Of a stretch of 64,000 nucleotides of DNA, positions 21,101 to 51,100 are shown piece by piece. The notes under the pieces were generated by a model. That model worked only from the letters and a program-made list of their open reading frames with translations, was not told the DNA's origin and ran no database searches. The position numbers and the translations under genes are program-made. Numbering within the stretch: position 1 is the first letter of the stretch; every line of letters starts with the position of its first letter. The DNA comes from Naegleria gruberi (Eukaryota). The stretch lies in NCBI GenBank assembly GCA_000004985.1, contig GG738899.1; one strand, 5' to 3'.

Positions 21101-24100
21101 TCTCAAGTGCCAATCCAGTTGATACTGATGGTGATTCATTGAGTATTTCTTCTACTCTTGTTTCTCCTTCAAGTGGTTCAATTACAATTTCCAATTCTGA
21201 TATTCCAAGTGTTGTTTACAAACAAAATACTGGATTCCTTGGAACTGATACTTTCAAGATTCAAATCTCTGATGGTGCTGCTACTGCTATTGTTACCATT
21301 TCTGTTACTGTTTATGATAATGCTCCATTGTCTAATGATATTTCTGAAAATAGACATTTTACTGAAGTTAGTAATGGATATACTAAGAATGCAATTTCAT
21401 TCTTCAATGTTACTGATATCGATTCTCAAGATAGTGTCACTGTTAAGGATGCTACTGTTGGATCTTGTGGTTCTGTCTCAAAGACTTCTTCAACTGTCAC
21501 ATTCACAAGTAATAAGGGAAGTGTTGGTGTTTGTACTGTAACTATCACATTTACTGATGGTCTATTGAATTCTGTATCCAAGTGGAATGTCAATGTTCAA
21601 AATCAAGATCCTTCTGCCGCACCAATTAGCACTACCGTTCACTGGAGTAAGAGTCAAGCTATTATTGACATTATGTCAACTTTGTCTGATGCTGATAATG
21701 ATGCCTTGTCTTATTCAGTTTCATCTTATGATTCCACATTCGGTAGCCCATCTATCAATTCTGATAAGGCTCTCGTATGGACTCTTCCACAAACACCAAA
21801 ATTAGGAACAACTCAAATTGTAATTTCATTCACAGATGGATGGGTCAGTAAGACTGCTTCTTATCCATTGATTGTTCAAAACGTTGCACCAACTGCAGTT
21901 GCAAAGACAATTTCATCAAAGTGGTCTGCATGTCTTTCTGGTATTACTATTGATATTTTGAGTGAATGCTCAGATAATGACGGAGATAGTTTGTCATTTG
22001 ACAGTACTACGCCAATTGTTACTGCTCCAGCTCAAGGAAGTGCTTCAATTGTTTCTTCAAAGGTTTATTACAAACAATCAACTGCTTCTGTTGGTTCTTA
22101 TTCCATTACTTACAAGATTACTGATGGTATTCAAACTTCATCAAACTCTATTACTGTCAATTGTGAAGATAATGCTCCTGTTGCTAATGCTGATTCAATT
22201 ACTGTTAATTGGAATACCTCTGATGTCGATATTACTATTTTGTCTAACGATATTGATTCAGATAATGATATTCTTTCTGTCACTAATCTTTCAGCTGTCA
22301 GTGAAGGTTCTTTAACTAATTTAGGTACTTTTGTTAAATATACTTTGAAGAAACCACCAACCCTTTCTGACAAGACATTCACCTATAAGGCATTCGACGG
22401 AGCTCTCTATTCCTCTGCTGCAACTGTCACTGTCAAAGTTGTCAATGCCAACAAGCCACAAATTAGTGATCAAAGTACAACTGCTCACTGGAGAACTGTC
22501 AAGGATGGTGTTTCATACACTGTCTATGATACTCTTACCGATGCTGATGGTGATTATTATTCACTTTCATTTGGTAGTGGTTCAAGTGCTTATTGTTCAC
22601 TTATTGACCTTTCGAATGGTATTAAGGGTGTTAAATATACTAGAAATGCATTCGATTCCACTGATTCTTGTAAAGTAGTTCTCTCTGATGGATTCAGTAC
22701 AAGTGCTGCCACATTAACAACCAACTCTTACAATAATGTTCCAGTTGCTGCCAACTTTACTTTAGATTATTCTGGTGGTAATATTCAATATGGTATTTCA
22801 ATTGATGTTTTGTCATCTGCTACAGATGCTGATATTCAAGATGTTCCATTCCTTTCCATTTTAAGTGTTGGAAATTCCAAATTATATGGTAGTGAAGCTG
22901 CAAATATTGTAAATGGACAAGTTTTCTATTTCCCAGATCAATCATTAGTTAAAGCATTGGGTACTGATACTGTTGCTTATACTATTAGTGATGGTTTATC
23001 AACATCTATTGGTTATCTCACTATTAACATCAAGTCAACTTCTCCATCCAGTACTGAACAATATTACAATGTTCATTTTAGATATTCAAGTGTTGGTTAT
23101 GTTTTCACACCATTGACAAAGATTGCAGATGCCACTAAACTTGATACTACTGTTGTTCAAGGAAGTGAACCAAATCAAGGTGGTTCAGTTGTTGTTTCTA
23201 GTGTTGATGAAAAGACAGTTACTTACAAACCATCTGGTTCCTATTTAGGTAATGAAATTTTCAAGTTAAAGTATTATACTGCTAGTGGTAGTAGTGATAT
23301 TACTTTTACAATGAATATTTATGATACTGCTCCAATTGCTCAATCACTTTCTGGTTCAGTTCATTTTGGTAAATCAACAACATTCAATTTAACTGCTTCA
23401 ACTTCAGATGCTGATCCATTGGATGTCAATAATTTGTCATTCTCAATTACTGGTCAACCATCTCAAGGATCTTTGAGTGTTTCATCAAATATTGCCACTT
23501 ATACTGCATCATCAACTGTTGGAACCTATTCTGGTATTTACAGAGTTTCAGATTCTATGAAATCTTCTACTGGTTCTATTACTTTGACTGTAACTAATAC
23601 TGTTCCTACTTCACAAACTAAAACCATTTCAGTTCCTTGGAGAACTTTCAAGGCAGGTTTTAATATTGATGTCTTGAATTTAGCACCAGCTGATTTTGAT
23701 AATGATGGAGATGAGTTGAGTTTGGTTTCAATTGCTCTTCAACCATCAGTTGGTTCAGTAACTAAATTGGATAGTAAGAGAGTTAGTATTGTTGGTTCAG
23801 GAAACTTTGTTGGTTCACTTACATTCAAATACATTGTTAGTGATGGTGCCTCAAATGGTCAAGTCACAACCACAGTTAACTTGAATGTTTACAACACTGC
23901 TCCAGTTGGTATTCCAGATAAGCTCTCTACCCACTGGAATGTTGCCTCAAAGACATTGAATGTTATTGCCAATGACACTGATGCTGAATCAGATCCTTTA
24001 ACTGTCACATCCGTTTATGGATCTTTAGCTTCAACTGCTCCAACTTTCACTTCTGATAGTATTGTCTATTATCCAAAGAATGCTCCATCAACAGATACAG

Positions 24101-27100
24101 TTTATTATACAGTTTCTGATAATGTTGCTACATCTATTTCATATGTCACTGTTACTGTAACTAACACTGCTCCAACTACAACTTCTCAATCATTTGTTGG
24201 TTCTTGGTCTTCAGCTAAGAATGGTTTAACATTTGACGTTGTTTCTACTTCTTCTGATGCTAATGGAGATTCATTGTCATTGCAATCATGCTCTTCATCA
24301 GTTACTTCCTCTCAAGGTAATGTCACTTGTTCTGGAAATGTCAAATTCACTCCAGCCAGTGGTTTCGTTGGTAGTATCAACCCAATCAGTTATATTATCA
24401 CTGATGGTAGAGACACTGTCACTGGTACTGTTTCCATTACAATTTTGAATAATGCTCCTACTGCTAATACTACAAATACTTTCAGATATCATTGGAGAAG
24501 TGTTTTGAGTAATACTGTTATTGATCTTTCTTCATATCTCAAAGATGCTGATGGTGATGCTGTTACTTTGACAGCTGTCACAAAGACACTTGTTGGTGTT
24601 GCTTCTCTTGGATCAGGAAATACCATTAACTATAAGGTTAATAGTGCTTACACTGGTACTGATTCAGTCACTGTCTCATTCACTGATGGATGGTCAACTT
24701 CAAGTGCCACTTTCAATATTGTAATTTACAATAACGCTCCTGTTGCTCAAAATATCATTACTTCAACTCACTTGGCAACTTTGAACATTCCTGTGATTGG
24801 ATCTGGTTCAAATCAACCAACAGATGCTGATGGAAGTGTTGATCTTAATAATTTAGTCATTTCTTCATTCTCAAATCCATCAGTTGGAAGTGTTTCTTTG
24901 AGTGGTGATAAGAAATCATTCACATTCACTAACGTTGCTGGAAATGTTGCCACTCAAACATTTACCTATGTCGTTTCAGATGGAAAGGATACTTCTGCAT
25001 CAAAGACTGTTACAATTTCCATTACAAACAATGCACCATCTGCAACTCCAATTACCATTTCTAAACATTGGGCTACAGTACAAGGTGGATTAGATATTAA
25101 TTTATTGTCTGTTGTAACTGATTCTGATGGTGATTCTCTTTCAATTACTTCATTCACTCAAACAAATAATGGAGCTGTTTCTTCAATCAATTCAACATCT
25201 GTCAAGTATATTCCAACACCATTGACTGCTGGTTTCACAACTTCATTCACCTATTCAGTTTATGATGGTTATACTACAATTTCAAATACTGTTACAATTT
25301 CAATTACCAATACACCACCTGTTGCAGTTGATGATACCATCACTGTTCACTGGACCAATAATACATTGTATTTGAAACCAGTTGTGAATGATTATGATTT
25401 GGATAATGATTACATTTATATTAACAAATTGTATCCATCTCAATTTATGAATGCCTATGCATCAATGGGTAATTATATCATCATTTCAAAGGGAACAACT
25501 ATTGTTAATAACTTTGCAAGTGTTGTCGTTCCTGGAAGCGTTGCAACTGCTGGATTTGTTAATCAAGTTCTTCAACCAACTGGCTCACTAAATGTTAATA
25601 ATGCTGCTCAACTTGCCATTGTTAATGCTGCTACTAATTTGTATCAATCATTGAGTTTATATACTTGTACTGCTTCATTAGATCAATCATTCCCATCTTC
25701 AAATGTTTTGAGTTTCTCACCTGGTGTCTATTGTTTCCCACAAGGTTTATCTGGTTCTGGTACCATCTTGTTGAGTGGTTCAGGTCTTTACATTTTCAGT
25801 ATTTCCACTAATTTGAATGCTAACTTCCAATGGTCATTCACAAATGGAGCTAGTGCTTCAAATGTTTATTGGTTGGTTGGTGCTGCTGGTATTTCAGGAA
25901 CTTTCTATGGTCATGTTTTGAGTAATGGTCAACTCAATTTCAATAATGTTGTTCAAAATGGTGTTATTATGAGTTTAGGATCAAATTCAATGAGTTTGAA
26001 TAGTGTTACTTTTGGTTCCGTTGTTATTCCAACTGGACAAACTGCCTTGGAATTACAATCTGACAAGTTGACTGTCTATTATAAGAATACTTTCATTAAT
26101 GGACCAGCAACTGACTCATTCCAATACACAATTACTGATCAAATTGCCACTTCTAATGTTGCTATTGTCAAATTGGTCTTTACCAATACTGCTCCAGTTG
26201 CCACTTCATTCTCAGCTGGTAAAGTTACATGGAAAAATACCTTAACAACTGCAAGTGTTGTTTCCAAGTATTGTTCTGATGCTGATAAGGATTCATTGAG
26301 TTTATTCGGAGTTACTCAAGGTAAATACGGAACTACTACAGTTACCGATTCTACAAGTGGTACCATTGTTTATACACCAAGTAGTTCAATTTCCTATACC
26401 TCTGTTGATTCCAATGGAGCTAGTTATGTAACTGATCAAATTACTTTTGGATGTTATGATGGAGCTCAAGTTACATATAACACATTCTCTGTTGTCGTTT
26501 ACAATACAGCTCCAAAGAGTGCTTCTAAATCACTTAGTGTTCAAAGAGATACTTCAAATCCAACTGTTACATTGAATGATTTGTTGGTTGGTGCTACAGA
26601 TGCTGAGGGTGATTCAATTTCTGTATCAAGTGTTTCAATGATTTCACAAAATACTGGTGCTTCTGTCTTGTTATCATCCAATACTGCTAAACTCACTTAC
26701 ATAACTTCATATTTAGGTTCAATTGTCTTTTCATTCACTTTAACTGATGGTCAATTGAGTTCAACTTATAATTATAATGTCACTATTACTGGTGCTCCAT
26801 TCTATTGTGTTGATTATACCATTAGTACTACCAAAGATTCCTCTGCTGTCACTTTCGAAACTGATTTAAAGTCTAAATTGTCAAGCTATTGTGTTAATGA
26901 TGTTTGTACTTTGGCTCTTGCTTCAACTGCATCACTCAATGGAGTTGGTTCAATTGCTGCCAATGGTAATAACTTGTTGACATATACTCAAAATTCCAAG
27001 TCATCATCAAATGGAGAATCCTATTCCACTTACTCATATTCTAATAGGGCAGGTCAAAGCGCAATTTGTAAGATTATCATTAATCAACCAAATAATGCAC

Positions 27101-29412
27101 CAACTGTCTATGATTATACTTATAGTTACTCAATTAGTAGAGCTTCTAATGATTATGTTACATTTGATTATGTTAGTTTATCATCCTCTGATGATCCAGA
27201 TGCTTCTGACTCAATTGTATTGAGTAGTATTTCAAGTGTTGGTACATGTACAACTAGTTCTATCAGTAGTTTGTCAATTACTAGTGATAACCAAATCAAA
27301 TTCTTGAGAAATCCATCATTCATTGGAAGTTGTTCATTCTCTTTGGTTGTTTCTGATAGTGATTTGAGAAATCCAATCTCTAAAACTGCAAAAATTACAA
27401 TCAATGCCATTTCTTCTCCACCAGTTGCTGTCAATGATGCTGTTTCTACAACCTATAACACATATATTGATATTCCAGTTTCCACATTACTTGGAAACGA
27501 TTATGATTCACTTGGTGGTACATTCTCATTCACTGGTATTAATTGCCCAACAGGTGATTCAACTTATTGTACAGCAGGCACTCCAACTATTCTCAATCCA
27601 TCTGATCCTGCAAATACAAGAATCATCAGAGTTCAACCAATTAAGGGATCTTGTAATTCTCAAAAATTCGTTTATGGTATCAAATCTGATTCTGATTCAA
27701 CAACTGCCACAGCTATTGTTACAGTTTCTTATACCAAATGTACATGTTCTTTGAATATGGATATTGTATTTGTTTTGGATGGTAGTTCATCTATTGATGC
27801 AGGAAATTGGATTAACATGCAAAACTTTGCATCCAATTTAACTGTTGGATTTGGTTCAAACATTTCACCAACTGCCACCAAGATTGGTATCATTCAATTC
27901 TCTACAACAACTGTAACTCACTTGGATTTGAAAGATGGTACTTCCAAGACAGCTGTTCTTAATGCCATTTCATCAGCTGGTCAACTCAAATCCAGTACCA
28001 ACTCAATTTTAGGTATTAACAATGCTGTTTCAATGGTTTTAAGTCAAGGTAGAAAGGATATCACTAGAAAACTCTTAATTCACATTACAGATGGTATGTC
28101 CAATTTACCTTGTGGTATGGGAGCTTGTCGTGCCATGTATGGTAGTGATAAGTCATTATATGGATCTGTTCCTAATTATTGTAAGTCACCTCGTTTCCCA
28201 GGTACTGATGCAACAATATGCTCATGGAATGAACCACTCAGTAGATGTAATCCTTGTTCTGATGCTACTCTTAGATCAACTGATTTGAATTCTTGGACAG
28301 TTGGAGGTGCTTCAAATCCAGAAAAATCAACTTATGGATCTATTTGGAATTGGAGACAATTAGTTGTAGGTATTGGTGATGGTTTGAGTTCTGGGTATGG
28401 ACAACTTCAAATTCAAAAGATGAATTACGATCCAAACAATTTAATTGTTGTCGATTGGTCTGATTTGAGCTCTGTTTATCAAACTGTTATTGATAATAGT
28501 TGTAATCTTGTCGATTCCACTCAAACCAACGTTCTTGTTCCACTTTCAAGTTCTGGATATTCTATTCAATATCTTGGAAAGACATTGTCCAAATCAAGTT
28601 ACCTTAATTATGAAGCAACCATTTCAACATTCACTTATCGTGTTAGTGTCTCTTCATCAGCACCTGCTTTACAAAGATTTACCTTAGGATTACAACCTGG
28701 TTACAATCAAGATAACTTTGTAAATTATGATCCATACTTCCCAGTTTTCATTGGTCAAGACACTACCACTAATTTGAATGGTTTCACTTTCTTATCACTT
28801 CCAAATTCATATACAATTGCAGCTGGTTCATCAGATACCTATACATTGAGTATTGCTGGTGATATTCCTGAAGGTGTTATTACTTATGGTATGTCGGGTG
28901 GTTCACAATACACACAAGGAACTGTTAAGGGACCAAGTGGAGTGATCAACTCAACCACAGTTGCTCTTCCACCAAATATTAATTACGGTGATGATTCAAG
29001 TTATAGAACTACCTATTGTTCCTCAACCAAATGTTATTTCTTTACCAAGATGAATTATGCCTATCGTATTGAAGCAATGAGTAAGATTTGTAAATATTGG
29101 TCTGCCAATGCAACACTAGTTCAAATTCAATCATCCACTGAAAAGACCACACTCATCAATAATGTTTTACCTTACGATGAGAGTGCTACCTTCTTCTTAG
29201 GTACTAAGGATTCCGATATTGCAGTTGGATCAACAACTACATGGCAAGATGGTACATCCATGTCCTCCTATACAAATTATCAAAGCAAACAACCTGGTTC
29301 CTACACTATTATTTATGCTTCATATAATGCTAATTCTCCAACTGGTACTTGGTGGAAGGGAGGTAGTTATGATACCAACACTCAATATTTACTTTGTCAA
29401 TTTAAGAAATAA
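18139..29412 (+). CDS. Giant type-II membrane adhesin-like protein (~3,720 aa). Exon 1 18139..18207, intron 18208..18309, exon 2 18310..29412. Architecture: TM anchor, about 28 tandem cadherin-like Ca-binding repeats, a DUF3494 (ice-binding-like) beta-helix, vWA domain, C-type lectin domain.
   Basis: MPEVITSSTVGRTAFGPNLSLLK|GGTISQTIVGLIVSASVVASLVVTIVMISVG is the TM segment. It is followed by ~95-100-aa repeats, each ending V-x-N-x-A-P-(V/T)-A (VVNDAPVPVDD, VSNTAPSTSP, VYNTAPVGIPD, ITNNAPSATP...) and containing D-x-D-G-D-S-L. The DUF3494-like stretch is at ~25440..26070; vWA has DIVFVLDGSSSID (MIDAS); the CTLD has KCYFF...WQDG...QP...WWKGG...CQF. The single 11.1-kb ORF is anchored to ORF 18388..29412. 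Confidence 0.8.
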
Positions 29413-34870: not shown

Positions 34871-36379
34871 ATGAGGAAAAAAACACAACAAAATCAATCA
34901 TTTCAAGTAGTCTATGAAAATGTTACAGAATTTGAAAAAGCCTTACTCACAAATCAAAATACACCTAACCATGTACTAGTTCTTGATGTACACGCAACAT
35001 GGTGCGGCAAGTGTAATTCAGTATTGTCTACCTTTGAAAAAATTAATATGGATTATGGAGATGACCATCAAATCATTTTTGGTGTGTTGGACTCACAAAA
35101 ATTGGTGACTGAGTTGAATGAAATTATGAAACCTGCTGTTCGTCTAGGAGTGACCATCATGAGTGCAAGAGGTTCATCTAAAAATCTATTAACGCTAGGA
35201 GAAGATGAAGTTCTCAATGATGAAGTTAAAGCAAAGAAATTGTATAAAGAGGATGTAAAAAGAAAAAATTATAAGGCTCTTTTGGAAACATTTGTAGGAT
35301 TATCGGAACCACATTTCCTAATTTTTAAGGAAGGAGAATTAATAAGAAAAATTAGAGGTGTAAATACACCAATGATCCATAAACTGATCGTCCAATTGCT
35401 TACTAATGAACCAGCAGAACATCCTGAGGAACCAAAGGTTGACAAAAATGCTGAGGTACAACTCGTAGTTGAACCAGAGAAGGAAGAAGTTAAACCAGTC
35501 GAGGAAGAAAAAAAGGAGGAAGTCATTGTAGAACAATCTGCAGAGGAACAAAAAACAGAAACAATAGCAACTGAGGAGACAGTAGTCGAGGAAGAAAAGA
35601 AAGAGGAAACAGTTGAGGAACAAAAGGCTGAAAGCTCAGTTGAAACTAAAACTGAAACAACTGTAGATGCTACTACTGTAACTGAAACTAAATCTGAAAC
35701 CACCACTGAGACAACAGAAACAGAAGAAAAAACAGAAGTTAAAGAAACGACAGAAATCCATGAAGAGGAAGCCAAGACTGCAACAGAATCTGTGTCTTTG
35801 GAAACTGTTGAACATTCAACTGATAATCATGAAATAACTACCGAGAAAACTTCTGAAGTGGAAGCACCTCCAAGACCAGTTGAGGATGTTGTTTTTGAGG
35901 AAAAACCTGTTGAAACAGTGGCTGTATCAGAAGAAGTGGAATCACATGGAGATATTTCTAATGAAGAGCAAGTTGAAACAAAAACTGAAGTCAAAACTGA
36001 ACAAGTCGAAACAAAAACTGAAACCAAGGTAGAAACTAAAACTGAAACAACTGTAGATACTACCACAGCAACAAATACAGAAACCACTACCACCACTACA
36101 ACTACAACTGAGGAAGTTAAACCTGAAGTGACTGGAAAGTACAAGGAAAAGTCTGGAAAGATTTGGGCTGTCACAACCTCCACCGCTTCAACATTTGAGT
36201 TATTAAATGAACAGGATGGAAGAAAGGCCACTGGTAAATATACTAAGGATTCCTCAGGAAATTATTCCATCACAATAACTTTCCATGATCCTAGTGGAGA
36301 TGTTGATTTGAACTCTGTAACACCAAACCTTAACACTATTCCACTCAGTAATGAAGATGCCTTCACAAAGGTAGAATAA
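34871..36379 (+). CDS. Thioredoxin-fold protein (WCGKC motif) with a long acidic E/K/T-rich repeat region (502 aa).
   Basis: VLVLDVHATWCGKCNSVLSTFEKI is a Trx-like CxxC active site (CGKC rather than CGPC). It is followed by a low-complexity acidic tract in which the module VETKTETTVD(A/T)TT occurs twice. Confidence 0.55.
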   Translation: MRKKTQQNQSFQVVYENVTEFEKALLTNQNTPNHVLVLDVHATWCGKCNSVLSTFEKINMDYGDDHQIIFGVLDSQKLVTELNEIMKPAVRLGVTIMSARGSSKNLLTLGEDEVLNDEVKAKKLYKEDVKRKNYKALLETFVGLSEPHFLIFKEGELIRKIRGVNTPMIHKLIVQLLTNEPAEHPEEPKVDKNAEVQLVVEPEKEEVKPVEEEKKEEVIVEQSAEEQKTETIATEETVVEEEKKEETVEEQKAESSVETKTETTVDATTVTETKSETTTETTETEEKTEVKETTEIHEEEAKTATESVSLETVEHSTDNHEITTEKTSEVEAPPRPVEDVVFEEKPVETVAVSEEVESHGDISNEEQVETKTEVKTEQVETKTETKVETKTETTVDTTTATNTETTTTTTTTTEEVKPEVTGKYKEKSGKIWAVTTSTASTFELLNEQDGRKATGKYTKDSSGNYSITITFHDPSGDVDLNSVTPNLNTIPLSNEDAFTKVE

Positions 36380-36444
36380 AGAAATGACGCTACAGTGACA
36401 ACTGACACTAAAACTACAGAAATTAAATAAATAATTGTAAATAT

Positions 36445-36895
36445 TTATCCAGATTTGAATAATAAAATTGCTAATCCATTCAGTGTAAAATAAATAAAAC
36501 ATTTAGCTTCGTAAGTTACCTTTAATTTTTAAATGTCACAAATTCACTCCAACTCAACTTACCATAGATCCGAAACTTTTTCCTACTATACAATGCCTTT
36601 TTCATATTTTAAATCCAAATGCTATTACTACTAATAAAACTTACCAGTATTTGCCTTTAAATAATTTTAATAACTTTCATGTATGAACAACACATTAAAA
36701 CCTACCATAAACTTCATCAAATTGTTTTTTAATAAATGTAGCAATATCCCTTTCCACAGAATATTTATCCATAGCTTGTTTGGTTACCGTTATTACTAGA
36801 TCCTTCATTTCATCAGTCATATCTATATTCTTTATATTCAGATTATCATCGGAAGTTGATTTGACAGCACCACTGCTACTAGCAATCGAAGACAT
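36445..36895 (-). CDS. DYNLL: Dynein light chain LC8 (DYNLL), 102 aa, 4 exons: 36706..36895, 36645..36654 (10-nt micro-exon), 36563..36596, 36445..36519.
   Basis: [102 protein letters not shown]. This matches human LC8 ([82 protein letters not shown]). The ATG is anchored to ORF 36695..37057. Confidence 0.7.
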
Positions 36896-36923
36896 TTTTT
36901 TCACAATAATTGAAAGTTTATTA

Positions 36924-39605
36924 TTATTGGTCTGACGAGGAAGCAACATTTGAAGAAACAAAAATAATCTTTTCGATTGTGGTAAAGAGTTCAACCAATT
37001 CTTTTTCTTTGGAGAGTGACATTCCACTTTCTTCATCATTCTTCTTCTTTTTAGCAACTAAACATTCAACAACTAATTGTTGACATTTTGTTAAAGTTGG
37101 AATAATCAAATCTTGATAAGCTGATCCTAATTGACCTTTCGAATATTCTTCCATAATAGAAGGTTCTTCAAGATAGGATAAAACAGGTGAAACTAACTTT
37201 CCAGGAATGAATAAAAGAATTGGCTTATCTCCCATCATTAATAAATATTGACAAATTGAAATCAATCTTGTACCATAAATAATAGCTCCAGAAGATAAAC
37301 TATCATCACTCAATTTAGCCAAATGTTCAACATGATTAATCTTCAATTCTTGTTTTCTTTCTTTCAAATAAGTTTTTTCTCTCTTTTTATCTAAAATCTT
37401 AATAAAAACGCTAAATTGTTTTGCAGTAAATTCAAATTGACTAATAAATGATTGCAATGTAGTATTATTAGCATTCAAACTTTCAACAAGAGTATTTAAT
37501 TCCTTAACTTCCTCCTCTCTTGTCTTATCAAGTTCAACCTTCTGATTAAGTTGTTTCATTAATAATTTAATTTCTCTATTTAATTCAACAAATTGAGTTT
37601 GTTGTTCTTCACTTGCCATTGATAATAAAGTATTATATTCTCTAATGAAATGTAAATTCTTTTCATTAATGTTAATACTTGTAGTATCAACAGGTTTCTT
37701 ACTACTTGATTGTTTACCAGATTGTTGTGTTGGAGTTGATCTTAATAAATTTTTACAAGTATCATAAACCATTAAATAAACAATCATTGTACATTTAGTT
37801 TTGATAATATGTTTTTCAACTGGAACAATAAATTCCTTTTCAATACTTTCTTTACGTTGTCTATGTAAAATTTCAATAGATTTGTTATGTATAACAATTT
37901 GTGTATATAATTCATTGAGTTTTTCTTCAACATTAAGTTCACTGCTCAATTTTTGTTCCAATTTCATAGTTTGTTGATTAACTATTTGTTCCTTGGTTTC
38001 TAAATATAATTTTTCAAGTTTAGGAATGAAATAATTTACAATAGATTCAATAATAGAATCATCTGATCCACCAAACTTGTTAATCATATTTTCATTTTCT
38101 TTATCATTATCTAAATATACAAGTAATTGTTTTTCAATGTGTGAATAAATATCATCCTTCTTTGGTAGTAATTTCTTAATTTGATCATTTTCATTAGAAA
38201 CTGGTGTTGATGATTTGGTTGATTTACTCTTTTGCTTCTTATTCTTATCATTTGAAGGTTGGGAAGGAGGAGGTGTACTAGTTGTTGATGGATTACTCTT
38301 TAAATAAATTTCAATAGCTTGAATAGCAATAGATTTGAATTGATCATTTAAGATTTGATCAATCATTTCAACAGTCATAATATATCTATTATCAAAAACA
38401 ATAATATCCTTGATATTCTTACTAAGAGTAATATACTTATCAACTAATTGTTTCATTTCACATGAAGTATCAATAAGAACACAATGATCACCACCATTAT
38501 TTTCAATATGTAATGGAATTGATTTGTGTTTATCATTATTACCATTAATAGTAGTATCGAATATATTTTTAAAAGATTCAATCATTTTCATGTGAATAAT
38601 AATTTCATCTTCAATATTAATAAGATCATGTTCTTTCATTTCTCCATAACCTGTTAAATAGTTAATAATTTGTTGTGTATTTTTAAATGCTTTATATCCT
38701 AACATTGATTCAACTCTTTCAACAGAAACATAACCATTACTATGAATAAATTTACAAACTTGATCAGTTGCCATCTTTTCATAAATATTTGGAACATATA
38801 AAGTACTATTAACTTGTAAAGTACCATTAATTTGTTTGTTCTTTATCAAATCTTTAACAATATTTTGATAAAGTTCTAATTCAATTTCAATATCATCAGC
38901 ATATTCATTACCATTACTTTCATTCATTAAATAAAACTTTTTAGTTACTTTTAATAAATCATTACATTCCATAGATCTACTAGTAATACTATTACAAATA
39001 CCAATTGTAATAGATTTTAAATTATTAATATATTTCTCTGTATATAAAGAGTTATTACTAAATATTGTTCCATTTAATAATAAGTGCATATATTTTGTAA
39101 TGATATGTTCTTTAATAAAATCAGAAGGTAAAAACAATTGTTTTGTTAATGTTCCGATATAAATATAACCTGATAATTTGAGTAATTCATTAATTTCCAT
39201 AACAACTGATTCAAGATAGGAAGGTGTCAAAATTTCGCATCCATTAATCAAGTCAGGAAGAACAATTTGTTTTTGTATTAAATTATGAATAGGTTGTTCT
39301 AAATAGGTAAAATCGACTCGTAATAATTTTGGTAATTCATTCTTATTAATTCTTCCTCCATATTTTTCTAATAGAATTTGTAATTCATATTCAATTTGAT
39401 CTCTAGTAATATATTCTTTACCATCAGATGTAAAACATAATTGTTCAGCAAAATTAGGATCTTGCTTTTTAATATATTGGATCAATTCAATAATGTTATG
39501 TTCATTCAATTTGTAAGATCCACCCGAAAGTGATTCTTGTTGTACTTGTTCAAATTGCTGTTGCAATTGTTCAATAGATAATTCCATTAAATCTATATCA
39601 GCCAT
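36924..39605 (-). CDS. UFL1: E3 UFM1-protein ligase 1 (UFL1) homologue, 893 aa, single exon.
   Basis: The N-terminus ...CFTSDGKEYITRDQIEYELQILLEKYGGRINKNELPKLLRVDFTYLEQPIHNLI matches human UFL1 (...[53 protein letters not shown]). Length and overall organisation are the same. Confidence 0.8.
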   Translation of the reverse strand: MADIDLMELSIEQLQQQFEQVQQESLSGGSYKLNEHNIIELIQYIKKQDPNFAEQLCFTSDGKEYITRDQIEYELQILLEKYGGRINKNELPKLLRVDFTYLEQPIHNLIQKQIVLPDLINGCEILTPSYLESVVMEINELLKLSGYIYIGTLTKQLFLPSDFIKEHIITKYMHLLLNGTIFSNNSLYTEKYINNLKSITIGICNSITSRSMECNDLLKVTKKFYLMNESNGNEYADDIEIELELYQNIVKDLIKNKQINGTLQVNSTLYVPNIYEKMATDQVCKFIHSNGYVSVERVESMLGYKAFKNTQQIINYLTGYGEMKEHDLINIEDEIIIHMKMIESFKNIFDTTINGNNDKHKSIPLHIENNGGDHCVLIDTSCEMKQLVDKYITLSKNIKDIIVFDNRYIMTVEMIDQILNDQFKSIAIQAIEIYLKSNPSTTSTPPPSQPSNDKNKKQKSKSTKSSTPVSNENDQIKKLLPKKDDIYSHIEKQLLVYLDNDKENENMINKFGGSDDSIIESIVNYFIPKLEKLYLETKEQIVNQQTMKLEQKLSSELNVEEKLNELYTQIVIHNKSIEILHRQRKESIEKEFIVPVEKHIIKTKCTMIVYLMVYDTCKNLLRSTPTQQSGKQSSSKKPVDTTSININEKNLHFIREYNTLLSMASEEQQTQFVELNREIKLLMKQLNQKVELDKTREEEVKELNTLVESLNANNTTLQSFISQFEFTAKQFSVFIKILDKKREKTYLKERKQELKINHVEHLAKLSDDSLSSGAIIYGTRLISICQYLLMMGDKPILLFIPGKLVSPVLSYLEEPSIMEEYSKGQLGSAYQDLIIPTLTKCQQLVVECLVAKKKKNDEESGMSLSKEKELVELFTTIEKIIFVSSNVASSSDQ

Positions 39606-39724
39606 TTTGTCTATCTATTATATTGTTCGATGAAGATGAAGAGAATTGATGATGATGCAGAACACTCAAGGCTTGTTCTTTGATCCTTAAGACAACAATT
39701 TGATTTTTTTAAAATGAATAAAAA

Positions 39725-43547: not shown

Positions 43548-43598
43548 NNNNNNNNNNNNNNNNNNNNNNNNNNNNNNNNNNNNNNNNNNNNNNNNNNN
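43548..43598. other. Assembly gap (51 N).
   Basis: Run of n. Confidence 0.99.
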
Positions 43599-45163: not shown

Positions 45164-48100
45164 NNNNNNNNNNNNNNNNNNNNNNNNNNNNNNNNNNNNN
45201 NNNNNNNNNNNNNNNNNNNNNNNNNNNNNNNNNNNNNNNNNNNNNNNNNNNNNNNNNNNNNNNNNNNNNNNNNNNNNNNNNNNNNNNNNNNNNNNNNNNN
45301 NNNNNNNNNNNNNNNNNNNNNNNNNNNNNNNNNNNNNNNNNNNNNNNNNNNNNNNNNNNNNNNNNNNNNNNNNNNNNNNNNNNNNNNNNNNNNNNNNNNN
45401 NNNNNNNNNNNNNNNNNNNNNNNNNNNNNNNNNNNNNNNNNNNNNNNNNNNNNNNNNNNNNNNNNNNNNNNNNNNNNNNNNNNNNNNNNNNNNNNNNNNN
45501 NNNNNNNNNNNNNNNNNNNNNNNNNNNNNNNNNNNNNNNNNNNNNNNNNNNNNNNNNNNNNNNNNNNNNNNNNNNNNNNNNNNNNNNNNNNNNNNNNNNN
45601 NNNNNNNNNNNNNNNNNNNNNNNNNNNNNNNNNNNNNNNNNNNNNNNNNNNNNNNNNNNNNNNNNNNNNNNNNNNNNNNNNNNNNNNNNNNNNNNNNNNN
45701 NNNNNNNNNNNNNNNNNNNNNNNNNNNNNNNNNNNNNNNNNNNNNNNNNNNNNNNNNNNNNNNNNNNNNNNNNNNNNNNNNNNNNNNNNNNNNNNNNNNN
45801 NNNNNNNNNNNNNNNNNNNNNNNNNNNNNNNNNNNNNNNNNNNNNNNNNNNNNNNNNNNNNNNNNNNNNNNNNNNNNNNNNNNNNNNNNNNNNNNNNNNN
45901 NNNNNNNNNNNNNNNNNNNNNNNNNNNNNNNNNNNNNNNNNNNNNNNNNNNNNNNNNNNNNNNNNNNNNNNNNNNNNNNNNNNNNNNNNNNNNNNNNNNN
46001 NNNNNNNNNNNNNNNNNNNNNNNNNNNNNNNNNNNNNNNNNNNNNNNNNNNNNNNNNNNNNNNNNNNNNNNNNNNNNNNNNNNNNNNNNNNNNNNNNNNN
46101 NNNNNNNNNNNNNNNNNNNNNNNNNNNNNNNNNNNNNNNNNNNNNNNNNNNNNNNNNNNNNNNNNNNNNNNNNNNNNNNNNNNNNNNNNNNNNNNNNNNN
46201 NNNNNNNNNNNNNNNNNNNNNNNNNNNNNNNNNNNNNNNNNNNNNNNNNNNNNNNNNNNNNNNNNNNNNNNNNNNNNNNNNNNNNNNNNNNNNNNNNNNN
46301 NNNNNNNNNNNNNNNNNNNNNNNNNNNNNNNNNNNNNNNNNNNNNNNNNNNNNNNNNNNNNNNNNNNNNNNNNNNNNNNNNNNNNNNNNNNNNNNNNNNN
46401 NNNNNNNNNNNNNNNNNNNNNNNNNNNNNNNNNNNNNNNNNNNNNNNNNNNNNNNNNNNNNNNNNNNNNNNNNNNNNNNNNNNNNNNNNNNNNNNNNNNN
46501 NNNNNNNNNNNNNNNNNNNNNNNNNNNNNNNNNNNNNNNNNNNNNNNNNNNNNNNNNNNNNNNNNNNNNNNNNNNNNNNNNNNNNNNNNNNNNNNNNNNN
46601 NNNNNNNNNNNNNNNNNNNNNNNNNNNNNNNNNNNNNNNNNNNNNNNNNNNNNNNNNNNNNNNNNNNNNNNNNNNNNNNNNNNNNNNNNNNNNNNNNNNN
46701 NNNNNNNNNNNNNNNNNNNNNNNNNNNNNNNNNNNNNNNNNNNNNNNNNNNNNNNNNNNNNNNNNNNNNNNNNNNNNNNNNNNNNNNNNNNNNNNNNNNN
46801 NNNNNNNNNNNNNNNNNNNNNNNNNNNNNNNNNNNNNNNNNNNNNNNNNNNNNNNNNNNNNNNNNNNNNNNNNNNNNNNNNNNNNNNNNNNNNNNNNNNN
46901 NNNNNNNNNNNNNNNNNNNNNNNNNNNNNNNNNNNNNNNNNNNNNNNNNNNNNNNNNNNNNNNNNNNNNNNNNNNNNNNNNNNNNNNNNNNNNNNNNNNN
47001 NNNNNNNNNNNNNNNNNNNNNNNNNNNNNNNNNNNNNNNNNNNNNNNNNNNNNNNNNNNNNNNNNNNNNNNNNNNNNNNNNNNNNNNNNNNNNNNNNNNN
47101 NNNNNNNNNNNNNNNNNNNNNNNNNNNNNNNNNNNNNNNNNNNNNNNNNNNNNNNNNNNNNNNNNNNNNNNNNNNNNNNNNNNNNNNNNNNNNNNNNNNN
47201 NNNNNNNNNNNNNNNNNNNNNNNNNNNNNNNNNNNNNNNNNNNNNNNNNNNNNNNNNNNNNNNNNNNNNNNNNNNNNNNNNNNNNNNNNNNNNNNNNNNN
47301 NNNNNNNNNNNNNNNNNNNNNNNNNNNNNNNNNNNNNNNNNNNNNNNNNNNNNNNNNNNNNNNNNNNNNNNNNNNNNNNNNNNNNNNNNNNNNNNNNNNN
47401 NNNNNNNNNNNNNNNNNNNNNNNNNNNNNNNNNNNNNNNNNNNNNNNNNNNNNNNNNNNNNNNNNNNNNNNNNNNNNNNNNNNNNNNNNNNNNNNNNNNN
47501 NNNNNNNNNNNNNNNNNNNNNNNNNNNNNNNNNNNNNNNNNNNNNNNNNNNNNNNNNNNNNNNNNNNNNNNNNNNNNNNNNNNNNNNNNNNNNNNNNNNN
47601 NNNNNNNNNNNNNNNNNNNNNNNNNNNNNNNNNNNNNNNNNNNNNNNNNNNNNNNNNNNNNNNNNNNNNNNNNNNNNNNNNNNNNNNNNNNNNNNNNNNN
47701 NNNNNNNNNNNNNNNNNNNNNNNNNNNNNNNNNNNNNNNNNNNNNNNNNNNNNNNNNNNNNNNNNNNNNNNNNNNNNNNNNNNNNNNNNNNNNNNNNNNN
47801 NNNNNNNNNNNNNNNNNNNNNNNNNNNNNNNNNNNNNNNNNNNNNNNNNNNNNNNNNNNNNNNNNNNNNNNNNNNNNNNNNNNNNNNNNNNNNNNNNNNN
47901 NNNNNNNNNNNNNNNNNNNNNNNNNNNNNNNNNNNNNNNNNNNNNNNNNNNNNNNNNNNNNNNNNNNNNNNNNNNNNNNNNNNNNNNNNNNNNNNNNNNN
48001 NNNNNNNNNNNNNNNNNNNNNNNNNNNNNNNNNNNNNNNNNNNNNNNNNNNNNNNNNNNNNNNNNNNNNNNNNNNNNNNNNNNNNNNNNNNNNNNNNNNN

Positions 48101-51100
48101 NNNNNNNNNNNNNNNNNNNNNNNNNNNNNNNNNNNNNNNNNNNNNNNNNNNNNNNNNNNNNNNNNNNNNNNNNNNNNNNNNNNNNNNNNNNNNNNNNNNN
48201 NNNNNNNNNNNNNNNNNNNNNNNNNNNNNNNNNNNNNNNNNNNNNNNNNNNNNNNNNNNNNNNNNNNNNNNNNNNNNNNNNNNNNNNNNNNNNNNNNNNN
48301 NNNNNNNNNNNNNNNNNNNNNNNNNNNNNNNNNNNNNNNNNNNNNNNNNNNNNNNNNNNNNNNNNNNNNNNNNNNNNNNNNNNNNNNNNNNNNNNNNNNN
48401 NNNNNNNNNNNNNNNNNNNNNNNNNNNNNNNNNNNNNNNNNNNNNNNNNNNNNNNNNNNNNNNNNNNNNNNNNNNNNNNNNNNNNNNNNNNNNNNNNNNN
48501 NNNNNNNNNNNNNNNNNNNNNNNNNNNNNNNNNNNNNNNNNNNNNNNNNNNNNNNNNNNNNNNNNNNNNNNNNNNNNNNNNNNNNNNNNNNNNNNNNNNN
48601 NNNNNNNNNNNNNNNNNNNNNNNNNNNNNNNNNNNNNNNNNNNNNNNNNNNNNNNNNNNNNNNNNNNNNNNNNNNNNNNNNNNNNNNNNNNNNNNNNNNN
48701 NNNNNNNNNNNNNNNNNNNNNNNNNNNNNNNNNNNNNNNNNNNNNNNNNNNNNNNNNNNNNNNNNNNNNNNNNNNNNNNNNNNNNNNNNNNNNNNNNNNN
48801 NNNNNNNNNNNNNNNNNNNNNNNNNNNNNNNNNNNNNNNNNNNNNNNNNNNNNNNNNNNNNNNNNNNNNNNNNNNNNNNNNNNNNNNNNNNNNNNNNNNN
48901 NNNNNNNNNNNNNNNNNNNNNNNNNNNNNNNNNNNNNNNNNNNNNNNNNNNNNNNNNNNNNNNNNNNNNNNNNNNNNNNNNNNNNNNNNNNNNNNNNNNN
49001 NNNNNNNNNNNNNNNNNNNNNNNNNNNNNNNNNNNNNNNNNNNNNNNNNNNNNNNNNNNNNNNNNNNNNNNNNNNNNNNNNNNNNNNNNNNNNNNNNNNN
49101 NNNNNNNNNNNNNNNNNNNNNNNNNNNNNNNNNNNNNNNNNNNNNNNNNNNNNNNNNNNNNNNNNNNNNNNNNNNNNNNNNNNNNNNNNNNNNNNNNNNN
49201 NNNNNNNNNNNNNNNNNNNNNNNNNNNNNNNNNNNNNNNNNNNNNNNNNNNNNNNNNNNNNNNNNNNNNNNNNNNNNNNNNNNNNNNNNNNNNNNNNNNN
49301 NNNNNNNNNNNNNNNNNNNNNNNNNNNNNNNNNNNNNNNNNNNNNNNNNNNNNNNNNNNNNNNNNNNNNNNNNNNNNNNNNNNNNNNNNNNNNNNNNNNN
49401 NNNNNNNNNNNNNNNNNNNNNNNNNNNNNNNNNNNNNNNNNNNNNNNNNNNNNNNNNNNNNNNNNNNNNNNNNNNNNNNNNNNNNNNNNNNNNNNNNNNN
49501 NNNNNNNNNNNNNNNNNNNNNNNNNNNNNNNNNNNNNNNNNNNNNNNNNNNNNNNNNNNNNNNNNNNNNNNNNNNNNNNNNNNNNNNNNNNNNNNNNNNN
49601 NNNNNNNNNNNNNNNNNNNNNNNNNNNNNNNNNNNNNNNNNNNNNNNNNNNNNNNNNNNNNNNNNNNNNNNNNNNNNNNNNNNNNNNNNNNNNNNNNNNN
49701 NNNNNNNNNNNNNNNNNNNNNNNNNNNNNNNNNNNNNNNNNNNNNNNNNNNNNNNNNNNNNNNNNNNNNNNNNNNNNNNNNNNNNNNNNNNNNNNNNNNN
49801 NNNNNNNNNNNNNNNNNNNNNNNNNNNNNNNNNNNNNNNNNNNNNNNNNNNNNNNNNNNNNNNNNNNNNNNNNNNNNNNNNNNNNNNNNNNNNNNNNNNN
49901 NNNNNNNNNNNNNNNNNNNNNNNNNNNNNNNNNNNNNNNNNNNNNNNNNNNNNNNNNNNNNNNNNNNNNNNNNNNNNNNNNNNNNNNNNNNNNNNNNNNN
50001 NNNNNNNNNNNNNNNNNNNNNNNNNNNNNNNNNNNNNNNNNNNNNNNNNNNNNNNNNNNNNNNNNNNNNNNNNNNNNNNNNNNNNNNNNNNNNNNNNNNN
50101 NNNNNNNNNNNNNNNNNNNNNNNNNNNNNNNNNNNNNNNNNNNNNNNNNNNNNNNNNNNNNNNNNNNNNNNNNNNNNNNNNNNNNNNNNNNNNNNNNNNN
50201 NNNNNNNNNNNNNNNNNNNNNNNNNNNNNNNNNNNNNNNNNNNNNNNNNNNNNNNNNNNNNNNNNNNNNNNNNNNNNNNNNNNNNNNNNNNNNNNNNNNN
50301 NNNNNNNNNNNNNNNNNNNNNNNNNNNNNNNNNNNNNNNNNNNNNNNNNNNNNNNNNNNNNNNNNNNNNNNNNNNNNNNNNNNNNNNNNNNNNNNNNNNN
50401 NNNNNNNNNNNNNNNNNNNNNNNNNNNNNNNNNNNNNNNNNNNNNNNNNNNNNNNNNNNNNNNNNNNNNNNNNNNNNNNNNNNNNNNNNNNNNNNNNNNN
50501 NNNNNNNNNNNNNNNNNNNNNNNNNNNNNNNNNNNNNNNNNNNNNNNNNNNNNNNNNNNNNNNNNNNNNNNNNNNNNNNNNNNNNNNNNNNNNNNNNNNN
50601 NNNNNNNNNNNNNNNNNNNNNNNNNNNNNNNNNNNNNNNNNNNNNNNNNNNNNNNNNNNNNNNNNNNNNNNNNNNNNNNNNNNNNNNNNNNNNNNNNNNN
50701 NNNNNNNNNNNNNNNNNNNNNNNNNNNNNNNNNNNNNNNNNNNNNNNNNNNNNNNNNNNNNNNNNNNNNNNNNNNNNNNNNNNNNNNNNNNNNNNNNNNN
50801 NNNNNNNNNNNNNNNNNNNNNNNNNNNNNNNNNNNNNNNNNNNNNNNNNNNNNNNNNNNNNNNNNNNNNNNNNNNNNNNNNNNNNNNNNNNNNNNNNNNN
50901 NNNNNNNNNNNNNNNNNNNNNNNNNNNNNNNNNNNNNNNNNNNNNNNNNNNNNNNNNNNNNNNNNNNNNNNNNNNNNNNNNNNNNNNNNNNNNNNNNNNN
51001 NNNNNNNNNNNNNNNNNNNNNNNNNNNNNNNNNNNNNNNNNNNNNNNNNNNNNNNNNNNNNNNNNNNNNNNNNNNNNNNNNNNNNNNNNNNNNNNNNNNN

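What the first reader, a model, noticed from the sequence alone, without database searches (positions are those of the whole stretch)
36445..36960. UFL1 stop and LC8 dynein-light-chain ATG separated by only 28 nt on the same strand; LC8 contains a 10-nt micro-exon
UFL1 ends ...SSDQ-TAA-TAA-TAA, and 22 nt after the triple stop lies the ATG of a well-conserved LC8 gene. That leaves no room for a conventional 3' UTR plus promoter. The options are a bicistronic or read-through transcript, an LC8 promoter embedded in UFL1 coding sequence, or trans-splicing or polycistronic processing. The LC8 model also needs a 10-nt exon (GCAAATACTG = G-K-Y-W) to keep the invariant WHCIVG block in frame.
Basis: seen in the sequence. 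Interest (0 to 1): 0.55.

Follow-up and report, generated by a model that had tools for sequence, protein, structure and literature searches.

The report
Tightly packed UFL1–LC8 genes in Naegleria
In the compact genome of the amoeba Naegleria gruberi, an apparently unannotated dynein light-chain (LC8) gene with a 10-base micro-exon starts 28 bases after the stop codon of the UFL1 gene, most likely as a separate transcript that overlaps its neighbour rather than as an operon.

Summary
The window is Naegleria gruberi and both genes lie on the minus strand. UFL1 (36924..39605) ends CAA-TAA-TAA-TAA. The LC8 ATG (36895) lies 28 nt after the first stop and 22 nt after the third. A four-exon LC8 model with a 10-nt exon (36645..36654) gives a 102-aa protein that matches Pfam Dynein_light at 1.6e-33.

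A close relative (metagenome contig) has the same UFL1–LC8 junction with a 30-nt gap. A more distant relative has LC8 19 nt after a different gene, NSRP1. N. fowleri and N. lovaniensis have no LC8 at this site; the N. fowleri orthologue stands alone elsewhere, with one intron and an uninterrupted GKYW.

The only AATAAA on this strand for more than 3 kb sits in the tandem stops. Published direct-RNA data show that N. gruberi uses AAUAAA and has 22–39-nt 3' UTRs, so a UFL1 3' UTR fits in the gap. The spacer has no AG acceptor and no notable RNA structure.

Best reading: two abutting or overlapping Pol II units, with the LC8 promoter inside the UFL1 3' coding sequence. No transcript data could be examined. 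The micro-exon is well supported by comparison. Modest interest; a new member of a known kind.

The parts
36924..39605 (-). UFL1 (E3 UFM1-protein ligase 1) coding sequence. It is a single exon of 893 aa plus the first TAA, and corresponds to NAEGRDRAFT_72758.
   Evidence: ORF. Pfam PF09743 at 4.7e-65. 100% identical to the N. gruberi protein P0001. The C-terminus aligns to the end with the N. fowleri and N. lovaniensis orthologues.
36918..36926 (-). Three tandem in-frame TAA stop codons of UFL1.
   Evidence: Read directly. The close relative L004 has two (TAA TAA).
36917..36922 (-). AATAAA hexamer, the predicted poly(A) signal of UFL1. It overlaps the second and third TAA.
   Evidence: It is the only AATAAA on the minus strand in 36250..37400, and there is none in the 2.7-kb UFL1 CDS, against 4.1 expected. 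AAUAAA is the N. gruberi poly(A) signal (PMC11529991). It is conserved in L004.
36896..36923 (-). 28-nt spacer between the first UFL1 stop and the LC8 ATG. It contains the AATAAA, a U-rich stretch (CTTTCAATTATTGTG) and an A6 run before the ATG.
   Evidence: TGTGAAAAAAATG is identical in L004. An A-run before the ATG is general among genes in this window. The spacer has no AG dinucleotide and no unusual RNA structure (z = +0.32).
36706..36895 (-). LC8 exon 1 (190 nt; Met1 to the first base of Gly64).
   Evidence: The start codon is conserved: L004, L005 and N. fowleri have in-frame stops at -15, -6 and -39. Against L004 there are 20 synonymous and 13 non-synonymous codon differences.
36655..36705 (-). 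LC8 intron 1 (51 nt, GTAGGT..AAAG, phase 1).
   Evidence: An intron is present at the same position in L004 (GTATGT). It is absent in N. fowleri and L005.
36645..36654 (-). 10-nt micro-exon GCAAATACTG. It supplies the last two bases of the Gly codon, Lys, Tyr, and the first two bases of the Trp codon.
   Evidence: It restores exactly the G-K-Y-W that is uninterrupted in N. fowleri (GGA AAA TAT TGG) and L005 (GGC AAG TAT TGG).
36597..36644 (-). LC8 intron 2 (48 nt, GTAAGT..AAAG, phase 2).
   Evidence: It is absent in N. fowleri and L005. It is not significantly similar to intron 1.
36563..36596 (-). LC8 exon 3 (34 nt; last base of the Trp codon, then [11 protein letters not shown]).
36520..36562 (-). 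LC8 intron 3 (43 nt, phase 0, between Met and Val).
   Evidence: The same intron position is found in N. fowleri and L005.
36445..36519 (-). LC8 exon 4 ([24 protein letters not shown] plus TAA at 36447-36445). A GATAAA variant hexamer overlaps the stop.
36380..36444 (.). 65-nt spacer between the convergent stops of LC8 and the thioredoxin-domain gene.
   Evidence: The thioredoxin-domain gene's stop lies inside an AATAAA (36375-36380, plus strand).
34871..36379 (+). Convergent thioredoxin-domain gene (NAEGRDRAFT_59268).
   Evidence: The same convergent neighbour follows LC8 in L005 and follows UFL1 directly in N. fowleri and N. lovaniensis.

Best explanation
UFL1 and LC8 are two separate RNA polymerase II genes packed head to tail in a compact genome. 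The 28-nt spacer serves both genes.

(1) UFL1 mRNA is cleaved and polyadenylated under the AAUAAA that overlaps its tandem stop codons. This gives a 3' UTR of about 20-28 nt that ends in, or just before, the A-run preceding the LC8 AUG. The signal is shown; the cleavage position is inferred from published N. gruberi statistics.

(2) LC8 is transcribed from its own start site, a short distance upstream of its AUG. The start is probably within the 53-nt stretch that is free of upstream AUGs, which covers the spacer plus the last 25 nt of the UFL1 ORF. Its promoter therefore lies inside the UFL1 3' coding sequence, and the two transcripts abut or overlap by a few tens of bases. This step is inferred.

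(3) The LC8 pre-mRNA loses three short introns (51, 48 and 43 nt), each presumably recognised on its own (intron definition). This joins in a 10-nt micro-exon that restores the conserved G-K-Y-W before HCIVG. The step is shown by sequence and comparison, not by reads.

(4) The LC8 3' end lies within the 65 nt before the convergent thioredoxin-domain gene.

The arrangement reflects genome compaction. It is not functional coupling of UFL1 and LC8.
For: Organism and gene identities.

Poly(A) signal:
- 36922..36917 is the only AATAAA on this strand across more than 3 kb, and the UFL1 CDS has 0 against 4.1 expected (P(0) = 0.01).
- Across 24 ORFs in the window, sense-strand AATAAA is depleted (8 observed, 34.9 expected) while antisense is not (55 against 47.4). 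The hexamer therefore appears to be a selected signal in this genome.
- Direct RNA sequencing shows that N. gruberi uses AAUAAA, with a median 3' UTR of 39 nt, or 22 nt when the hexamer overlaps the stop, and with U-rich downstream elements (PMC11529991).
- The spacer downstream of the hexamer is U-rich.

LC8 as an independent, functional gene:
- The ATG is preceded by the A-run typical of genes in this window.
- The ATG is the conserved start in four taxa.
- The nearest upstream ATG is at -54.
- The gene appears to be under purifying selection against L004.
- The N. fowleri orthologue is a stand-alone gene about 690 nt from a divergent neighbour.
- In L005 the upstream gene is NSRP1, not UFL1, with a 19-nt gap. 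The pairing is therefore not conserved, but tight packing is.

General compaction in these genomes:
- The UFL1 and NSRP1 ATGs are 119 nt apart.
- The LC8 and thioredoxin-domain gene stops are 65 nt apart.
- In N. fowleri the UFL1 and thioredoxin-domain gene stops are 1 nt apart.

Precedent: transcripts that start in the upstream gene or end in the downstream gene are known in compacted eukaryotic genomes (PMC3629993).

Micro-exon.
Against: - No transcript data could be consulted, so the transcription start site, the poly(A) site and the splice junctions are all inferred.
- No promoter-like signal was found. Synonymous sites in the last 30 UFL1 codons are no more conserved than elsewhere between N. 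gruberi and L004.
- No k-mer is shared upstream of LC8 among three taxa beyond chance.
- An initiator-like TTCAA that I noticed in the spacer is not enriched upstream of other ATGs in the window.
- In L005 the upstream gene's AATAAA ends only 5 nt before the LC8 ATG. There the upstream mRNA must run into the LC8 coding sequence, and any LC8 leader longer than about 5 nt would carry the upstream gene's poly(A) signal. The neat picture of a 3' end followed by a start site cannot hold everywhere.
- A tight upstream gap recurs with two different upstream genes, which is also what co-transcription would predict.
Confidence: 0.66

Rival explanations
1. Dicistronic expression. Most LC8-coding RNA comes from the UFL1 promoter by read-through. 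LC8 is then translated either by termination-reinitiation across the 28-nt spacer or from a processed downstream RNA.
For: The 28-nt gap is the smallest of about 12 same-strand gaps in the window. No promoter signal was detectable. Gaps of 19-30 nt upstream of LC8 occur in three taxa with two different upstream genes. In L005 an 8-codon upstream ORF ends 3 nt before the LC8 AUG (stop codon at -6 to -4).
Against: A strongly selected AATAAA sits at the UFL1 stop, so most UFL1 transcripts should end before LC8. ORF1 is 893 codons and contains many AUGs, which rules out leaky scanning and makes reinitiation inefficient (established knowledge of eukaryotic translation). The spacer has no unusual structure. 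The N. fowleri orthologue works as a stand-alone gene. Heterolobosea average about 2 genes per same-strand run and lack polycistronic architecture.
Confidence: 0.1
2. Polycistronic precursor resolved by spliced-leader trans-splicing, as in Euglenozoa or nematodes.
For: Heterolobosea are the sister group of Euglenozoa. The gap is operon-like. L004 and L005 each have an AG shortly upstream of the ATG (TTTAAAG at -13; CAGCAG at -9).
Against: N. gruberi has no AG in the 28-nt spacer; the only AG within 65 nt lies inside the UFL1 CDS at 36933. N. fowleri has no AG in the last ~39 nt before its ATG. The papers I searched report no spliced leader or polycistronic architecture for Heterolobosea.
Confidence: 0.02
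3. LC8 is transcribed from a start site far inside UFL1, or from further upstream, giving a long leader. Translation would then begin at the in-frame ATG at -54 and produce an LC8 with 18 extra N-terminal residues.
For: The LC8 frame is open for 54 codons upstream, and the ATG at -54 is in frame.
Against: The extension is not conserved: L004, L005 and N. fowleri have in-frame stops at -15, -6 and -39. Such a leader would carry the UFL1 AATAAA and its U-rich element. The -54 ATG lacks the A-rich context typical of genes in this window.
Confidence: 0.07
4. This LC8 copy is an unexpressed relic or pseudogene squeezed between two genes, which would explain why it is missing from the annotation.
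For: No identical or near-identical N. gruberi protein exists in a 5.8-billion-protein database that does hold its neighbours. N. fowleri and N. lovaniensis lack a gene at this site.
Against: The ORF is intact, all six splice sites are canonical and the family hallmarks are conserved. In the conserved part of exon 1 (residue 19 onward) nearly all differences from L004 are synonymous; the few replacements there are conservative (D/E, V/I, R/K, T/A). The gene is kept next to the thioredoxin-domain gene in three lineages. A 10-nt exon and a 28-nt gap are typical reasons for gene finders to miss a gene.
Confidence: 0.05

Closest known systems
Overlapping transcription units in compacted eukaryotic genomes (microsporidia such as Encephalitozoon cuniculi and Antonospora locustae; nucleomorphs). 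Williams et al. 2005 PNAS, as cited in PMC3629993.
   Same: Intergenic spacers are too short to hold a UTR plus a promoter. Transcripts start inside the upstream gene or end inside the downstream gene. Neighbours are functionally unrelated.
   Different: It is not a reduced parasite or an organelle remnant. Overlap is inferred here, not observed.
'Dual-use' stop codon/poly(A) signals with ultrashort 3' UTRs in Giardia and N. gruberi (PMC11529991).
   Same: AAUAAA sits at the stop codon, the predicted 3' UTR is about 20 nt, and the hexamer is depleted in coding sequence.
   Different: The UFL1 hexamer overlaps the second and third tandem TAA, not the first TAA where translation ends. It therefore falls just outside that paper's strict overlap window. 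The neighbouring thioredoxin-domain gene (GAATAAAG) is a strict case.
Eukaryotic operons resolved by spliced-leader trans-splicing (kinetoplastids, euglenids, nematodes; PMC7668243).
   Same: Same-strand genes are separated by tens of bases, and the upstream gene's poly(A) signal lies close to the downstream start.
   Different: The N. gruberi spacer has no AG acceptor, no spliced leader is known in Heterolobosea, and the gene pairing is not conserved.
Polycistronic mRNAs in green algae and some fungi (recalled from memory: Gallaher et al. 2021 PNAS; Gordon et al. 2015 PLoS One).
   Same: Two ORFs lie on one strand with a very short inter-ORF distance.
   Different: In those cases the upstream ORF is usually short and has a weak start context, which allows leaky scanning. 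Here ORF1 is 893 codons.
Micro-exons (about 30 nt or less) in short-intron genomes.
   Same: A 10-nt exon has canonical AG and GT flanks, lies between introns of about 50 nt, and is needed to keep the frame and a conserved motif.
   Different: The two flanking introns are lineage-specific. They are present in the N. gruberi clade (intron 1 is also seen in L004) and absent in N. fowleri and L005.

Membership tests
LC8 / DYNLL dynein light chain (Pfam PF01221) | Full-length match to the Dynein_light profile above the curated cut-off | tested here: met
   115.4 bits against a cut-off of 29.1, E = 1.6e-33, profile positions 3-86 of 86. Best solved-structure matches are DYNLL1/2 at about 2e-29.
LC8 / DYNLL dynein light chain (Pfam PF01221) | Conserved WHCIVG block and C-terminal ILLFKSG | tested here: met
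   [12 protein letters not shown] and AILLFKSG* are present once the micro-exon is spliced in.
UFL1 (E3 UFM1-protein ligase 1, Pfam PF09743) | N-terminal E3_UFM1_ligase domain | tested here: met
   220.4 bits, E = 4.7e-65, residues 11-306. Orthologues are found in N. fowleri and N. lovaniensis at 67-68% identity.
Operon resolved by spliced-leader trans-splicing | Same-strand genes separated by about 100 nt or less | tested here: met
   28 nt.
Operon resolved by spliced-leader trans-splicing | 3' splice acceptor (AG after a pyrimidine-rich tract) between the upstream stop and the downstream AUG | tested here: not met
   The 28-nt spacer has no AG. The only AG within 65 nt is at 36933, inside the UFL1 CDS.
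Operon resolved by spliced-leader trans-splicing | A spliced-leader RNA, and mRNAs that carry a common 5' leader | not testable with these tools
   No transcript data and no whole genome were available. The papers I searched report polycistrony only in Euglenozoa, not Heterolobosea.
Operon resolved by spliced-leader trans-splicing | The gene pair is conserved as a unit | tested here: not met
   The upstream gene is UFL1 in N. gruberi and L004, and NSRP1 in L005. LC8 stands alone in N. fowleri.
Dual-use stop codon / poly(A) signal (PMC11529991) | AAUAAA lies within the window from 2 nt upstream to 5 nt downstream of the stop codon | tested here: inconclusive
   The hexamer starts at the second base after the first TAA, which is outside the strict window. 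It does overlap the second and third in-frame TAA. The thioredoxin-domain gene meets the criterion strictly.
Dual-use stop codon / poly(A) signal (PMC11529991) | Measured 3' UTR of about 22 nt | not testable with these tools
   The paper's supplementary tables are not held, and no reads were available.
Overlapping transcription units of compact eukaryotic genomes | The spacer is shorter than the typical 3' UTR plus 5' UTR plus core promoter | tested here: met
   The spacer is 28 nt, against a median 3' UTR of 39 nt in this species.
Overlapping transcription units of compact eukaryotic genomes | Transcripts are observed to start in the upstream gene or end in the downstream gene | not testable with these tools
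   No RNA data. The spliced LC8 protein could not be looked up, and the metagenome scan found no relatives.
Micro-exon | A very short exon with canonical flanking splice sites that is required for frame and conserved sequence | tested here: met
   The sequence is AG|GCAAATACTG|GTAAGT. It is the best of all enumerated models. The orthologues encode the same GKYW without interruption.
Micro-exon | Exon-exon junction reads | not testable with these tools
   No RNA-seq access.

The most novel reading that the evidence does not exclude
UFL1-LC8 in N. gruberi, and NSRP1-LC8 in the L005 relative, are genuine dicistronic transcription units. On this reading LC8 has no promoter of its own and its mRNA is generated from a read-through precursor. 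That would be the first operon-like gene expression found in Heterolobosea, the sister lineage of the polycistronic Euglenozoa.
Probability: 0.07. Interest if true: 0.7.

Novelty: new member of a known kind. Interest (0 to 1): 0.3.

Why it matters
In practical terms, a conserved and apparently functional LC8 gene seems to be missing from the N. gruberi protein set. It was probably missed because of its 10-nt exon and its 28-nt distance from UFL1. It should be added to the annotation, and similar genes may have been missed elsewhere in the genome.

In biological terms, the locus is a compact test case for three questions:
- How a free-living protist places a promoter, a poly(A) site and a translation start within about 50 bases.
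- How polymerase coming from UFL1 is kept from interfering with LC8.
- How a 10-nt exon is spliced between two introns of about 50 nt.

If the minority reading (true co-transcription) were right, it would bear on how polycistronic transcription arose in the Discoba.

Tried and rejected
(1) Initiator motif. I noticed TTTCAATT in the spacer and in a few other upstream regions. TTCAA is not enriched at -35..-6 of 24 ATGs in the window, and the top k-mers are merely AT-rich and do not survive multiple testing.

(2) Promoter footprint inside UFL1. The synonymous-difference rate between N. gruberi and L004 in the last 30 codons (0.40) lies within the range seen elsewhere (0.26-0.48). With only two sequences the power is low.

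(3) Shared motif upstream of LC8 in N. gruberi, L005 and N. fowleri. Nothing was found beyond chance.

(4) RNA structure that might drive reinitiation. The 120 nt around the junction give z = +0.32.

(5) Non-coding RNA in the region. There are no Rfam or tRNA hits near it.

(6) The two micro-exon-flanking introns as duplicates or copies of a mobile 'introner' element. They are not more similar to each other than shuffled controls, and they have no other copies in the window.

(7) Transcript evidence. The spliced LC8 protein could not be looked up. The metagenome scan found no relatives. The supplementary tables of the 3'-UTR paper are not held.

(8) A bacterial-type promoter/terminator scan was run but is irrelevant for a eukaryote.

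(9) Genome-wide intergenic statistics for Naegleria could not be found in the searchable literature.


Full report
**Identity and observation**

The window is AT-rich (about 30-35% GC) and contains long runs of N, so it is a draft scaffold. An 893-aa single-exon ORF on the minus strand (36924..39605) is 100% identical to a Naegleria gruberi predicted protein (XP_002672297, NAEGRDRAFT_72758). It carries the E3_UFM1_ligase domain at 4.7e-65.

Read on the minus strand, this ORF ends ...TCA GAC CAA TAA TAA TAA, followed by ACTTTCAATTATTGTGAAAAAA and then ATG. The first TAA is at 36926-36924 and the ATG at 36895-36893.

**The LC8 gene model**

From that ATG, a four-exon model gives a 102-aa protein:
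- Exons are 190, 10, 34 and 75 nt.
- Introns are 51, 48 and 43 nt, all GT..AG.

The protein matches Pfam Dynein_light end to end (1.6e-33) and resembles DYNLL1/2 most closely among solved structures.

The 10-nt exon GCAAATACTG (36654..36645) is required. I enumerated every GT/AG combination with up to two introns, and the micro-exon model came out clearly best. The only in-frame model that skips the micro-exon uses a poor GTTTTA donor and deletes K-Y-W, including the Trp of WHCIVG.

**Comparative evidence**

Five related loci were recovered.

- In N. lovaniensis (L001) and N. fowleri (L002), UFL1 is followed directly by the convergent thioredoxin-domain gene. There is no LC8 between them. In N. 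fowleri the two stop codons are 1 nt apart.
- The N. fowleri LC8 orthologue (P0007, 78% identity over the 80% of the query that aligns; 72% in my own pairwise alignment) lies at another locus (L003). It is about 690 nt from a divergent neighbour. It has a single intron, at the position of N. gruberi intron 3, and encodes GKYW without interruption.
- Metagenome contig L004 is a close relative of N. gruberi. It has UFL1 ...NE TAA TAA, then 30 nt from the first stop, then the LC8 ATG. The sequence TGTGAAAAAAATG is identical to N. gruberi, and an intron sits at the intron-1 position. The contig ends before the micro-exon.
- Contig L005 is a more distant relative, roughly equidistant from N. gruberi and N. 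fowleri, at 43% GC. Here LC8 starts 19 nt after the stop of NSRP1 rather than UFL1. Only intron 3 is present, and the thioredoxin-domain gene lies convergently 16 nt downstream.

Four conclusions follow:
- The junction is not an assembly artefact.
- The adjacency of LC8 and the thioredoxin-domain gene is old, and it was lost in the N. fowleri/N. lovaniensis lineage.
- The gene upstream of LC8 is not conserved, but a very short upstream gap recurs.
- The two introns that create the micro-exon are specific to the N. gruberi clade. Whether they were gained there or lost twice elsewhere cannot be decided from these taxa.

**What the spacer contains**

The hexamer AATAAA at 36922..36917 overlaps the second and third TAA. 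It is the only AATAAA on this strand between 36250 and 37400, and the whole UFL1 CDS contains none, against 4.1 expected from codon shuffles (P(0) = 0.01). Across 24 ORFs in the window, the hexamer is depleted more than fourfold on the sense strand (8 against 34.9) but not on the antisense strand (55 against 47.4).

This agrees with published direct-RNA sequencing (PMC11529991). That study reports four things for N. gruberi:
- It uses AAUAAA.
- Its median 3' UTR is 39 nt.
- About 11-13% of its stop codons overlap the hexamer, and those genes have a median 3' UTR of 22 nt.
- It uses U-rich downstream elements.

The sequence after the UFL1 hexamer (CUUUCAAUUAUUGUG) is U-rich. A UFL1 3' UTR of about 20-28 nt, ending in the A-run before the LC8 AUG, is therefore what this organism's known rules predict. 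The cleavage position is my inference. What cannot fit is a promoter.

**LC8 start and leader**

The A-run before the ATG is the usual start context of genes in this window. L004, L005 and N. fowleri have in-frame stops 15, 6 and 39 nt upstream of their ATGs, so this ATG is the conserved start. The 54-codon open frame upstream in N. gruberi is not meaningful.

The nearest upstream ATG is at -54 in N. gruberi, -53 in L004 and -74 in N. fowleri. This is consistent with a leader of at most about 50 nt, so the core promoter would overlap the last part of the UFL1 coding sequence.

I could not find a sequence signature of that promoter:
- There is no excess synonymous conservation at the UFL1 3' end.
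- No motif is shared among the taxa.
- An initiator-like TTCAA that I spotted is not enriched upstream of other genes.

**Tests of the alternatives**

- Spliced-leader trans-splicing needs an AG acceptor. The N. gruberi spacer has none, and N. fowleri has none in the last ~39 nt. A recent survey of Discoba finds about 2 genes per same-strand run and no polycistronic architecture in Heterolobosea.
- A translated dicistronic mRNA would need reinitiation after an 893-codon ORF, and the junction has no unusual structure (z = +0.32). LC8 also functions as a stand-alone gene in N. fowleri.
- A pseudogene is unlikely. The ORF is intact, the splice sites are canonical, and in the conserved part of exon 1 nearly all differences from L004 are synonymous (over the whole exon, 20 synonymous and 13 non-synonymous codon differences). 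The gene is also retained in three lineages.
- One real caveat remains. In L005 the upstream gene's AATAAA ends 5 nt before the LC8 ATG. There the upstream mRNA must extend into LC8, and any LC8 leader longer than about 5 nt would carry the upstream gene's poly(A) signal. Physical overlap of the two transcripts, rather than neat abutment, is therefore likely in at least some lineages.

**Context**

The neighbourhood is compact throughout. The UFL1 and NSRP1 ATGs are 119 nt apart, and the LC8 and thioredoxin-domain gene stops are 65 nt apart. The stop of the pseudouridine-synthase gene and the ATG of the thioredoxin-domain gene are 104 nt apart. Even so, 28 nt is the smallest of about 12 same-strand gaps in the window (ORF-based and approximate).

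Overlapping transcripts in compacted eukaryotic genomes are a known phenomenon (PMC3629993, citing Williams et al. 2005).

**Annotation status**

Two searches of a 5.8-billion-protein database returned no identical or near-identical N. gruberi LC8. That database contains the N. gruberi UFL1 and thioredoxin-domain proteins. The two flanking genes also have consecutive UniProt accessions (D2VUR5 and D2VUR6). The gene therefore appears to be unannotated.

**Verdict**

The most likely mechanism is two independent, abutting or overlapping Pol II transcription units (confidence about 0.66). In this model the UFL1 poly(A) signal is built into its tandem stops, the LC8 promoter lies inside the UFL1 3' coding sequence, and a genuine 10-nt micro-exon is flanked by lineage-specific introns.

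This is a new example of known kinds of compaction and micro-exon use, so interest is modest. Public long-read RNA data for this strain would settle it quickly.

Noticed in passing
L002 3757-3763 (N. fowleri): The stop codons of the convergent UFL1 and thioredoxin-domain genes are separated by a single base (TAA A TTA). If each has a 3' UTR of normal length for Naegleria, it must run antisense through the other gene's coding sequence. This is tighter than the finding under study.
   Followed up: partly
window, 24 ORFs of at least 130 aa: AATAAA is depleted more than fourfold on the sense strand of ORFs (8 observed, 34.9 expected from codon shuffles) but not on the antisense strand (55 against 47.4). 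This fits selection against premature poly(A) signals.
   Followed up: yes
window 36375-36380 (+): The thioredoxin-domain gene's stop codon lies inside an AATAAA (GAATAAAG). This is a strict 'dual-use' stop/poly(A) signal. Further AATAAA and ATTAAA copies on the plus strand overlap the LC8 3' end.
   Followed up: partly
L005 450-482: In this relative the AATAAA of NSRP1 ends 5 nt before the LC8 ATG. An 8-codon upstream ORF (MMINFTAE) starts inside the NSRP1 CDS and ends 3 nt before the LC8 ATG. The intergenic gaps on this contig are 19, 16 and 56 nt.
   Followed up: partly
window 18388-29412 (+): A single 3,674-aa ORF contains at least 14 bacterial Ig-like (Big_9) or cadherin-like repeats and a VWA domain. 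It looks like a giant adhesin-like protein with bacterial-type domains.
   Followed up: partly
L001 6001-9031 and 9040-9453 (N. lovaniensis): The deposited UFL1 model (P0003, 907 aa) lacks about 45 residues that are present in N. fowleri and N. gruberi, which probably reflects a spurious intron. The thioredoxin-domain gene model stops at 9453, although a 122-aa ORF continues in another frame toward UFL1, which suggests a frameshift or a missed intron.
   Followed up: no
window 39606-39724: UFL1 and the NSRP1-like gene are divergent, with only 119 nt between their ATGs. This implies a very compact bidirectional promoter.
   Followed up: no
window 45164-59552; 43548-43598; 62690-62739: There is a 14.4-kb run of N and two gaps of about 50 nt. 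About a quarter of the window is unsequenced scaffold gap.
   Followed up: no
window 15604-15675 (+): This is a tRNA-Glu (anticodon TTC) and is the only Rfam or ARAGORN hit in the window.
   Followed up: no
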